Of a stretch of 64,000 nucleotides of DNA, positions 61,466 through 61,591 are shown piece after piece. Position numbers and translations under genes: made by a program. This stretch comes from Escherichia coli O127:H6 str. E2348/69 (GTDB taxonomy: Bacteria > Pseudomonadota > Gammaproteobacteria > Enterobacterales > Enterobacteriaceae). The stretch lies in the NCBI RefSeq assembly GCF_000026545.1, contig NC_011601.1; one strand, written 5' to 3'. The notes below the pieces were generated by a model that did no database searches, was not told the origin of the DNA, and saw nothing but the letters and a program-made list of their open reading frames with translations. The stretch's first letter is position 1, and each line of letters opens with the position of its first letter.

Positions 61466-61591
61466 ATGAAACTTTTAATGCGCGCTATATTCAGTCTGTT
61501 GTTGCTTTTTACTCTCTCTATTCCTGTCATTTCTGACTGTGTTGCAATGGCCATTGAAAGTCGCTTCCAATATATGATGCTGCTTTTTTAA
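61466..61591 (+). CDS. small hydrophobic ORF (41 aa), possibly K-12 yqfG
   Basis: ATG 2 nt after uacT stop encodes MKLLMRAIFSLLLLFTLSIPVISDCVAMAIESRFQYMMLLF; below the track's length cut-off; identification as yqfG is from memory only. Confidence 0.4.
   Translation: MKLLMRAIFSLLLLFTLSIPVISDCVAMAIESRFQYMMLLF

What the first reader, a model, noticed from the sequence alone, without database searches (positions are those of the whole stretch)
61466..61591. 41-codon hydrophobic ORF coupled to the 3' end of uacT
An ATG 2 nt after the uacT stop opens a 41-aa ORF encoding MKLLMRAIFSLLLLFTLSIPVISDCVAMAIESRFQYMMLLF, which looks like a single transmembrane helix. It is below the track's length cut-off. 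I believe K-12 annotates a small protein here, but I am not certain.
Basis: partly seen in the sequence, partly recalled or inferred. Interest (0 to 1): 0.3.

Follow-up and report, generated by a model that had tools for sequence, protein, structure and literature searches.

The report
Known small membrane protein gene yqfG
The 41-codon ORF is yqfG, an already annotated and experimentally studied small membrane protein gene of E. coli, so the finding is correct but ordinary; the one new point is that its relatives in several enterobacterial genera always sit directly behind the urate transporter gene uacT.

Summary
It coincides base for base with the RefSeq CDS "yqfG: protein YqfG". The window is 100% identical to EPEC strain E2348/69 over the 501-nt query around the ORF. 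Published work shows YqfG is an integral small membrane protein cleaved by the intramembrane protease RseP in vivo and in vitro; its function is unknown.

My own tests confirm it is a genuine coding gene:
- The 41-codon frame is kept across Escherichia and Citrobacter although synonymous sites are near saturation.
- Only this frame shows purifying selection (pN/pS 0.07-0.45, Fisher p from 5e-3 to 1e-6).
- Variable sites by codon position number 22/10/37.

A profile search widens the family from "Escherichia only" to Citrobacter, Kluyvera, the Klebsiella oxytoca group, Enterobacter and Apirhabdus/Erwinia. In every locus with upstream context, the small gene directly follows a uacT-type permease. 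In the distant members it is followed by fdhF.

This suggests, but does not prove, a role with UacT or in formate-dependent urate use. A crude AlphaFold2 fusion test gave no support for docking.

Verdict: already known, low interest.

The parts
60016..61464 (+). uacT (ygfU), the urate/H+ symporter CDS. Its last codons contain the yqfG ribosome-binding site.
   Evidence: RefSeq annotation transferred from the 100%-identical record; Pfam Xan_ur_permease in the orthologous loci.
61399..61461 (+). Conserved C-terminal tail of UacT (KVRTVRMWLLMRKLKKNEHGE).
   Evidence: The VRTVRMWLL[LM]RK motif is kept even in UacT-type permeases that are only 44-45% identical and also carry a yqfG homolog. It is absent from the Hafnia, Edwardsiella, Aeromonas and Morganella homologs. 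Its significance is unknown.
61456..61459 (+). Shine-Dalgarno sequence GGAG, 6 nt upstream of the yqfG ATG.
   Evidence: Read directly from the sequence. Purine-rich SD-like sequence lies at the same place in all homologous junctions.
61466..61591 (+). yqfG CDS, 41 codons plus TAA. It encodes a small inner-membrane protein. This allele has K2, L3 and Q35 where K-12 has N2, F3 and K35.
   Evidence: literature.
61600..61637 (+). Stable hairpin directly 3' of yqfG. It may mark the 3' end of the uacT-yqfG transcript or stabilise it. It has no U-tract.
   Evidence: Folding gives dG -27.4 kcal/mol for the 86-nt stretch, z = -5.3, with 0 of 200 shuffles as stable. The stem is kept by compensatory changes among Escherichia lineages. 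The terminator scan did not call it.
61527..61658 (-). yqfH, the antisense small ORF. It is 23 aa in K-12. Here a 1-nt deletion in the T-run near 61596 shifts the frame after codon 21, so the ORF reads on to 43 aa, antisense to the 3' half of yqfG.
   Evidence: Alignment to K-12; RefSeq flags it as a pseudogene in E2348/69; ORF list; K-12 sequence from PMC6001520.
61629..61658 (+). Reported constitutive sigma-70 promoter for idi (TTGTCG-18-AATCAT). It marks the boundary of the uacT-yqfG unit.
   Evidence: PMC3946193; motif located in the sequence.
61713..62261 (+). idi, isopentenyl-diphosphate isomerase, the downstream neighbour. It is not conserved as a neighbour outside Escherichia and Citrobacter.

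Best explanation
This is yqfG, a genuine and already annotated gene for a 41-residue small inner-membrane protein.

Shown by sequence or by the literature:
- It is a conserved coding frame under purifying selection.
- It lies 1 nt after the uacT stop codon, with an SD inside uacT. No sigma-70-like promoter was detected nearby.
- As an HA-MBP fusion the protein is integrally membrane-associated. It is cut within its predicted transmembrane segment by the S2P protease RseP, both in cells (plasmid-borne and chromosomal RseP) and with purified enzyme.

Inferred:
- yqfG is translated from the uacT mRNA by coupling or re-initiation, so YqfG is made where and when UacT is made.
- It inserts with the N-terminus inside (K2 and R6 on the cytoplasmic side), with residues about 3-19 as the membrane helix and the invariant P20 as a kink. 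The conserved [GA][IL]xSRFx[FY]..LF-COOH tail then sits at the periplasmic face.
- RseP limits its abundance.

Most likely role, at about 0.35 probability: a dedicated partner of the urate permease UacT, or of the formate-dependent urate-utilisation module ygfT / uacT / fdhF. It would stabilise, assemble or tune the transporter, as other small membrane proteins do for theirs.
For: Identity:
- The coordinates match the RefSeq yqfG CDS exactly, and the gene is annotated across the E. coli genomes listed.
- The window's allele is itself a catalogued YqfG variant, seen on 144 contigs.

Coding status:
- NG86 dN/dS is 0.10-0.35 between species, and variable columns by codon position number 22/10/37.
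- Only frame 0 shows an excess of synonymous change, with p from 5e-3 to 1e-6.
- Invariant P20, R33 and F34 hold across 26 sequences that fall to 29% identity.

Membrane location and RseP cleavage:
- PMC4597795 and PMC10470546 ('Class I' substrate).
- The AlphaFold2 model is a kinked helix with pLDDT 85.

Coupling:
- The junction shows a 1-nt gap in 11 of the 14 homologous loci that have upstream context. Two more have a 1-nt overlap and one has a 4-nt gap. All have SD-like sequence upstream.
- The promoter scan found no sigma-70-like site in 61000-62300.

Link to uacT:
- The family HMM hits exactly one ORF per positive locus. Wherever upstream sequence is available, that ORF lies directly after the Xan_ur_permease gene.
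- This holds in Escherichia, Citrobacter, Kluyvera, and the Klebsiella oxytoca-group and Enterobacter-type loci.
- It holds even where the permease is only 44-45% identical.
- It also holds where the downstream gene is idi, rha genes or fdhF.
Against: - No experiment links YqfG to UacT or to urate use. None of the urate-pathway papers I read mention it.
- Several uacT orthologs have no yqfG: C. freundii, Pluralibacter, Hafnia, Edwardsiella and Aeromonas. UacT therefore does not need it in general.
- In the AlphaFold2 UacT-linker-YqfG fusion, the YqfG segment scored a lower pLDDT (73/73/63/44 per 10-residue block) than YqfG alone (92/95/89/68/53). That gives no sign of confident docking.
- Purifying selection on yqfG (pN/pS 0.07-0.45) is weaker than on uacT (0.067).
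- Adjacency could reflect only shared expression.
- The primary discovery papers (Hemm 2008, Fontaine 2011) were not available to me. That YqfG accumulates from the native locus therefore rests on my memory and on citations.
Confidence: 0.85

Rival explanations
1. YqfG is a signal-peptide-like pre-peptide. Residues 1-23 would act as a Sec signal (n-region K2/R6, h-region 7-19, helix-breaking P20, c-region V-I-S). Leader peptidase would release the conserved 17-18-residue C-terminal peptide into the periplasm or outer leaflet, and RseP would merely clear the leftover signal peptide.
For: - The Akiyama laboratory chose YqfG because it resembles signal peptides, which are known RseP substrates.
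- P20 is invariant, and the most conserved block (SRF-x-[FY]) lies after it.
- V21-I22-S23|D24 fits the -3/-1 rule, and Kluyvera has a textbook V-Q-A|G site.
- The C-terminus nearly always ends in an aromatic residue, mostly Phe.
Against: - Many family members have poor -1 residues (VQQ|A, VQY|A, VRQ|A), so a cleavage site is not conserved.
- HA-MBP-YqfG accumulates at the expected full-length size without RseP. A 2-kDa loss would be hard to see, though.
- The C-terminal part is itself hydrophobic and modelled as a continuation of the helix.
- No signal-peptide predictor was available to me.
Confidence: 0.15
2. The act of translating the ORF matters, not the peptide. Ribosomes continuing past the uacT stop could protect the 3' end, open or close the downstream hairpin, or set expression of the next gene (fdhF in the distant members).
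For: - Start/stop coupling is tight and conserved.
- A conserved hairpin lies immediately after the ORF.
- fdhF starts only 17-24 nt after the small ORF in the Klebsiella and Enterobacter-type loci.
Against: - Frame-specific purifying selection and invariant residues (P20, R33, F34) over 29-56% identity show that the amino-acid sequence is constrained.
- The length is held at 38-41 codons.
- The protein is stable enough to be studied as a membrane protein.
Confidence: 0.07
3. YqfG is a type I toxin-like hydrophobic peptide, kept in check by an antisense transcript (the yqfH strand) and by RseP, as shown for HokB.
For: - Its size and hydrophobicity resemble Hok, Ldr and TisB-type peptides.
- RseP degrades Hok toxins in the same screen.
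- An antisense gene, yqfH, abuts the 3' end of yqfG.
Against: - It has no promoter of its own.
- It is always fused translationally to a transporter gene.
- The overlap with yqfH is only 4 nt in K-12, and the yqfH sequence differs between Escherichia lineages.
- In the passages I retrieved, growth inhibition is mentioned for a Hok protein but not for YqfG.
Confidence: 0.03
4. It is a chance ORF created by the AT-rich, Leu/Phe-rich sequence after uacT, and was annotated by inertia.
For: - It has no Pfam, NCBIfam or PDB family.
- Its function is unknown.
Against: - The frame, length and motif are conserved across at least six genera.
- Experimental membrane-protein behaviour has been published.
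Confidence: 0.01

Closest known systems
E. coli K-12 YqfG (UniProt YQFG_ECOLI, RefSeq WP_001010156.1)
   Same: Same gene. It has the same position between uacT and idi, the same 41-codon length, and 38 of 41 residues identical.
   Different: The window allele (WP_001339298.1, EPEC E2348/69 type) has N2K, F3L and K35Q. All three are at positions that vary across the family.
Small membrane proteins that partner with transporters or membrane complexes (KdpF-KdpABC, AcrZ-AcrB, MgtS-MgtA, CydX-CydAB, SgrT-PtsG). The list is from my own knowledge; CydX appears.
   Same: It is a single-pass protein of about 30-50 residues, encoded next to or within the operon of a membrane protein. It is conserved together with that gene.
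   Different: No physical or functional interaction has been shown for YqfG. My fusion model gave no support. Many uacT orthologs lack it.
RseP (S2P) substrates: remnant signal peptides and the small membrane proteins YkgR, HokB, HokE, Blr and YshB
   Same: YqfG is a published Class I RseP substrate: cleaved in vivo by plasmid-borne and chromosomal RseP, and in vitro. It has the type II, signal-peptide-like architecture and a very short periplasmic part.
   Different: Unlike RseA or FecR, no signalling output is known. Unlike HokB, no toxicity is known. The physiological meaning of the cleavage is explicitly unknown.
Sec signal peptides
   Same: It has n/h/c-like organisation, with basic residues, a hydrophobic core and a Pro helix breaker.
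   Different: The whole protein is only 41 residues, the cleavage-site consensus is not conserved across the family, and the 'mature' part would be 17-18 hydrophobic residues.

Membership tests
YqfG (E. coli small protein, RefSeq 'protein YqfG') | Sequence identity to the reference protein and the same length. | tested here: met
   93% identical to K-12 YqfG over 41 of 41 residues. It is an exact match to WP_001339298.1, annotated as yqfG in E2348/69.
YqfG (E. coli small protein, RefSeq 'protein YqfG') | Locus: immediately downstream of uacT, upstream of idi, on the same strand. | tested here: met
   The window order uacT 60016-61464 / yqfG 61466-61591 / idi 61713-62261 is identical to K-12.
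YqfG (E. coli small protein, RefSeq 'protein YqfG') | The protein is actually synthesised from the native locus. | not testable with these tools
   I recall that the discovery paper (Hemm et al. 2008) reported this, but that paper was not held. cites it only in general terms. The indirect support is frame-specific purifying selection.
Single-pass small inner-membrane proteins | One hydrophobic helix long enough to span the bilayer, with flanking positive charge. | tested here: met
   Mean Kyte-Doolittle hydropathy is 1.44. AlphaFold2 gives helices 2-17 and 19-40 with pLDDT about 90 over residues 1-30. K2 and R6 are N-terminal. Integral membrane association of the HA-MBP fusion is published.
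Single-pass small inner-membrane proteins | Defined topology (N-in/C-out). | not testable with these tools
   Only a TMHMM prediction is reported in PMC4597795. It is consistent with the positive-inside rule.
RseP (S2P) substrates | RseP-dependent intramembrane cleavage. | not testable with these tools
   Published for the K-12 protein. The window allele differs only at residues 2, 3 and 35, outside the Ile8-Phe15 stretch that was probed by mutagenesis.
Transporter-associated accessory small proteins | Conserved genetic linkage to the transporter gene. | tested here: met
   There is one copy per locus, directly after the uacT-type gene wherever upstream sequence exists. This holds across genera and with three different downstream neighbours.
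Transporter-associated accessory small proteins | Physical association with the transporter, or an effect on it. | tested here: inconclusive
   In the AlphaFold2 single-chain fusion with a paired alignment, the YqfG segment's pLDDT was lower than for YqfG alone. No PAE or coordinates were available, and no experiment exists.
Bacterial lipoproteins (lipobox) | An [LVI][ASTVI][GAS]C motif with an invariant Cys. | tested here: not met
   The E. coli sequence reads I-S-D-C with Asp at position -1. Cys25 is replaced by Gly, Ser or Ala in Citrobacter, Kluyvera and Klebsiella members.
Sec signal peptides / secreted pre-peptides | A conserved leader-peptidase site (small residues at -3 and -1). | tested here: inconclusive
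   The site fits in the Escherichia/Citrobacter subfamily (V/A-x-S) and in some of the 38-residue subfamily (VQA|G or VQA|A, as in Kluyvera). It fails in the members that have Q or Y at -1.
Type I toxins | Own promoter, a cis-antisense RNA regulator, and toxicity. | tested here: not met
   No promoter was detected. The gene is obligately coupled to uacT. The antisense yqfH overlaps it by only 4 nt, and its sequence differs between lineages. Toxicity was not tested.
Curated protein and RNA families (Pfam, NCBIfam, PDB, Rfam) | A significant match to a curated model. | tested here: not met
   There were no matches above the curated thresholds.

The most novel reading that the evidence does not exclude
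YqfG is not an orphan Escherichia peptide. It would be the founding member of a family found across Enterobacteriaceae, not covered by Pfam or NCBIfam and labelled only 'hypothetical' outside Escherichia. That family would serve as a dedicated subunit or regulator of the UacT urate permease, or as a membrane tether or organiser of the ygfT / uacT / fdhF formate-dependent urate-reduction module. RseP cleavage would set its level. Engineering of urate uptake in probiotic E. coli, which over-expresses ygfU alone, would then be missing a component.
Probability: 0.3. Interest if true: 0.45.

Novelty: already known. Interest (0 to 1): 0.15.

Why it matters
As a finding it adds nothing new. The gene is annotated in RefSeq for the E. 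coli genomes I examined, and the protein is used as a model substrate in RseP studies.

Its residual value is as a lead. YqfG has no known function. The comparative data here give a concrete and cheap hypothesis: that it works with the urate transporter UacT, or in formate-dependent urate use. That pathway is currently of interest for gut urate clearance and for engineered probiotics. The data also show that homologs in Klebsiella, Enterobacter, Citrobacter and Kluyvera are unnamed or labelled only 'hypothetical'.

Tried and rejected
1. NCBIfam, Pfam, PDB-sequence and Rfam searches gave no meaningful match. The only Rfam hit, an Enterococcus sRNA at 15 bits against a gathering score of 100, is noise.

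2. The primary papers (Hemm 2008, Hemm 2010, Fontaine 2011, the EcoSal 2020 review) were not held under the ids I tried. Two of those ids came from my memory and two from the reference list. The supplement of the stress Ribo-RET preprint was also not held. I therefore have no direct footprint data.

3. A single-sequence protein search suggested the family is restricted to Escherichia and Shigella. I rejected this after tblastn and profile searches found Citrobacter, Kluyvera, Klebsiella, Enterobacter and Apirhabdus members.

4. The AlphaFold2 fusion UacT-(GGGGS)5-YqfG, with 13 paired and 33 unpaired rows, showed no gain in confidence for YqfG. This is inconclusive, not negative, because no PAE or coordinates are returned and the paired depth is small.

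5. I rejected the lipoprotein reading because Cys25 is not conserved and Asp sits at position -1.

6. I rejected the idea that yqfG belongs with idi. The neighbour downstream changes (idi, rha genes, fdhF) while uacT upstream does not.

7. I checked the UacT C-terminal tail as a co-varying partner of YqfG. The correlation is only partial, because the tail is also present in C. freundii and Pluralibacter, which lack yqfG.

8. Searches for 'b4684' and for papers that mention yqfG together with uacT or ygfU found nothing relevant.

Full report
**Observation.** The ORF is exactly as described.
- uacT ends with TAA at 61462-61464. One base (T, 61465) follows, and ATG opens at 61466.
- The frame closes with TAA at 61589-61591 and encodes MKLLMRAIFSLLLLFTLSIPVISDCVAMAIESRFQYMMLLF.
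- A GGAG lies 6 nt upstream of the ATG, inside the last uacT codons.
- Mechanically the frame is open from an ATG at 61448, giving 47 aa. The annotated start is 61466.

**Identity.**
- A 501-nt query around the ORF matches 5393 of 5426 complete E. coli genomes. RefSeq labels the feature 'yqfG: protein YqfG'.
- The window is 100% identical over that query to EPEC E2348/69. There the yqfG CDS (WP_001339298.1) maps to window 61466-61591 base for base.
- K-12 carries the same gene (WP_001010156.1).
- The window allele differs from K-12 by N2K, F3L and K35Q plus one synonymous change.
- It is itself a catalogued variant seen on 144 contigs. The K-12 allele is UniProt YQFG_ECOLI.

**What is published.**
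- PMC4597795 describes YqfG as a small membrane protein of unknown function, predicted to be type II (N-in/C-out).
- It shows that HA-MBP-YqfG is integrally membrane-associated and is cleaved by wild-type RseP but not by catalytically dead RseP, presumably within the transmembrane segment.
- Helix-destabilising substitutions at residues 8-15 modulate that cleavage.
- PMC10470546 confirms cleavage with chromosomal RseP, with a 3xFLAG tag, and in vitro with purified RseP. It classes YqfG as a 'Class I' substrate alongside YkgR, HokB, HokE, Blr and YshB.
- The authors state that the physiological meaning is unknown.
- The discovery papers (Hemm et al. 2008; Fontaine et al. 2011) were not available to me. 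From memory, the 2008 study detected the tagged protein from the chromosome. I mark that as recollection.

**Is it a real coding gene? My own tests.**
- tblastn of YqfG against loci anchored on UacT found the same frame outside Escherichia: 'Citrobacter sp. R56' at 54% identity and Kluyvera at about 30%.
- A profile search added C. farmeri, C. amalonaticus and C. enshiensis.
- An exhaustive HMM search of 1.8 billion representative proteins found 28 representatives of 38-41 residues.
- Cluster names place these in the Klebsiella oxytoca/michiganensis/pasteurii group, the Enterobacter cloacae complex, further Citrobacter, and Apirhabdus / Erwinia sp..
- In a 26-sequence alignment P20, R33 and F34 are invariant. 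R6, L14 and S32 are nearly so, and the C-terminus is almost always aromatic.
- Nei-Gojobori dN/dS is 0.10 for E. coli versus E. albertii, 0.12-0.19 versus cryptic Escherichia, and 0.19-0.35 versus Citrobacter. Variable columns by codon position number 22/10/37.
- As a control, only the yqfG frame shows a synonymous excess (pN/pS 0.07-0.45, Fisher p from 5e-3 to 1e-6). The two other frames do not. uacT itself gives 0.067.
The gene is real.

**Anatomy and context.**
- In every homologous locus with upstream sequence, the small ORF directly follows a Xan_ur_permease (uacT-type) gene.
- Across those 14 loci the junction is a 1-nt gap in 11, a 1-nt overlap (TAATG) in 2 and a 4-nt gap in 1. All have SD-like purines upstream.
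- In two Kluyvera loci the spacing is 66 nt, and the ORF has its own AGGA.
- A family HMM run over six-frame translations of all 99 fetched loci hits exactly one ORF per positive locus. It hits none in the roughly 70 other uacT-homolog loci: C. freundii, Pluralibacter, Hafnia, Edwardsiella, Aeromonas, the Burkholderiales and others.
- The downstream neighbour varies.
  - It is idi in Escherichia and Citrobacter.
  - It is rha-type AraC genes in metagenomic contig L090.
  - It is fdhF, 17-24 nt later, in the more distant loci (those with the 38-39-aa form and L096/L097, some attributable to Klebsiella and Enterobacter). fdhF is confirmed by TIGR01591 at 966 bits against a cutoff of 666. L093 has an in-frame stop at codon 140, where I recall the FdhF selenocysteine lies.
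- ygfT lies divergently upstream in most of these loci.
- YgfT has been proposed to take electrons from formate dehydrogenase during formate-dependent urate degradation, and UacT is the urate permease beside it. The uacT-yqfG-fdhF arrangement next to ygfT therefore looks like a functional module.
- These permeases are only 44-45% identical to E. coli UacT. They still keep both the small ORF and the C-terminal tail VRTVRMWLLLRK.

**Structure.**
- With the family alignment, AlphaFold2 models YqfG as helix 2-17, a kink before P20, and helix 19-40. Mean pLDDT is 85 (92/95/89/68/53 per block of ten).
- I tested the partner idea crudely with a UacT-(GGGGS)5-YqfG fusion on a paired alignment.
  - UacT folded well.
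  - The YqfG segment scored 73/73/63/44, lower than alone.
- No PAE or coordinates are returned, so this is inconclusive. It gives no support.

**Mechanism.**
- I regard two things as established: this is yqfG, and it encodes a constrained, membrane-inserted peptide that RseP cleaves.
- I infer three more:
  - It is translated from the uacT message by coupling. This rests on spacing, SD and the absence of a promoter.
  - It inserts N-in.
  - RseP limits its level.
- The most likely function, at roughly one chance in three, is as a partner of UacT or of the urate/formate module. The basis is the invariant linkage to uacT across genera and across three different downstream contexts.
- Rivals:
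  - A signal-peptide-like pre-peptide that releases the conserved C-terminal 18-mer. The cleavage-site motif is only partly conserved.
  - A purely cis-acting translated ORF. This is contradicted by the amino-acid constraint.
  - A type I toxin. There is no own promoter and the gene is obligately coupled.
  - A chance ORF. This is refuted.

**Comparison and novelty.**
- The feature is a member of the YqfG family by every testable criterion: sequence, length and locus.
- It resembles the transporter-associated small proteins KdpF, AcrZ, MgtS and CydX, but the defining interaction is untested.
- It is not a lipoprotein, because Cys25 is not conserved and Asp sits at position -1.
- No Pfam, NCBIfam, PDB or Rfam family covers it.
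- No paper in the held library connects yqfG with uacT or ygfU. The taxonomic extension and the uacT/fdhF linkage may therefore be unreported.
- The finding as submitted is already known and ordinary.

**Scores.** Interest 0.15. Novelty: already known.

Noticed in passing
window 61527-61658 (- strand); 1-nt deletion in the T-run at about 61596-61599: The antisense small gene yqfH is 23 aa in K-12 (MINQVSVYRQPPVLSGCRQVKTI) and was detected by tagging and PRM-MS in the literature. In this strain a single-base deletion shifts its frame after codon 21. The ORF then runs on to 43 aa, antisense to the 3' half of yqfG. RefSeq flags it as a pseudogene in E2348/69. Its sequence also differs in other Escherichia lineages.
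   Followed up: partly
window 61600-61637: A stable hairpin (dG -27.4 kcal/mol for the 86-nt stretch, z = -5.3) lies directly 3' of yqfG. It is maintained by compensatory substitutions between E. coli lineages and E. albertii, but no U-tract follows it. It lies inside the yqfH reading frame, so the conservation there may be RNA structure rather than yqfH protein.
   Followed up: partly
L092 3645-, L093 3638-5785, L094, L095, L096 3644-5800, L097: In the distant loci (some attributable to the Klebsiella oxytoca group and Enterobacter), the yqfG homolog is followed 17-24 nt later by fdhF. The L093 copy has an in-frame stop at codon 140, where I recall the FdhF selenocysteine lies; the L096 copy has no in-frame stop. 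With ygfT divergent upstream, this gives a compact ygfT | uacT-yqfG-fdhF cluster. It fits the formate-dependent urate pathway described for E. coli, where fdhF lies elsewhere.
   Followed up: partly
window 61399-61461 (UacT residues about 462-482): The UacT C-terminal tail KVRTVRMWLLMRKLKK is conserved even in permeases only 44-45% identical overall. It is absent from the Hafnia, Edwardsiella, Aeromonas and Morganella homologs. It co-occurs with yqfG, but also persists in C. freundii and Pluralibacter, which lack yqfG.
   Followed up: partly
L005 4443-4500 (Serratia oryzae): Between uacT and fdhF there are only about 54 nt. A short ORF overlaps the uacT stop and begins MIRFWFAAALL..., which resembles the N-terminus of YqfG family members. 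It is probably a deletion remnant of yqfG.
   Followed up: no
Protein variants P0001, P0005, P0013 (57-66 aa); P0019, P0023 (43-45 aa); P0087, P0088: Some E. coli genomes carry stop-loss alleles of yqfG that extend the C-terminus by 16-21 residues. Others have in-frame 2-4-residue duplications in the hydrophobic core, or rare frameshifts. The gene therefore tolerates some variation within the species.
   Followed up: no
L086 2001-3499 (cryptic-clade Escherichia): uacT is split into two ORFs here (2001-2372 and 2267-3499), by a frameshift or an assembly error, while the adjacent yqfG is intact. The sister assembly L087 has an intact uacT.
   Followed up: partly
window 57661-59595 (- strand) and upstream: The window carries ygfT, the formate-dependent uric acid utilisation protein, divergent from uacT. 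The finding therefore sits at the edge of the anaerobic urate-degradation gene cluster described in recent papers.
   Followed up: no
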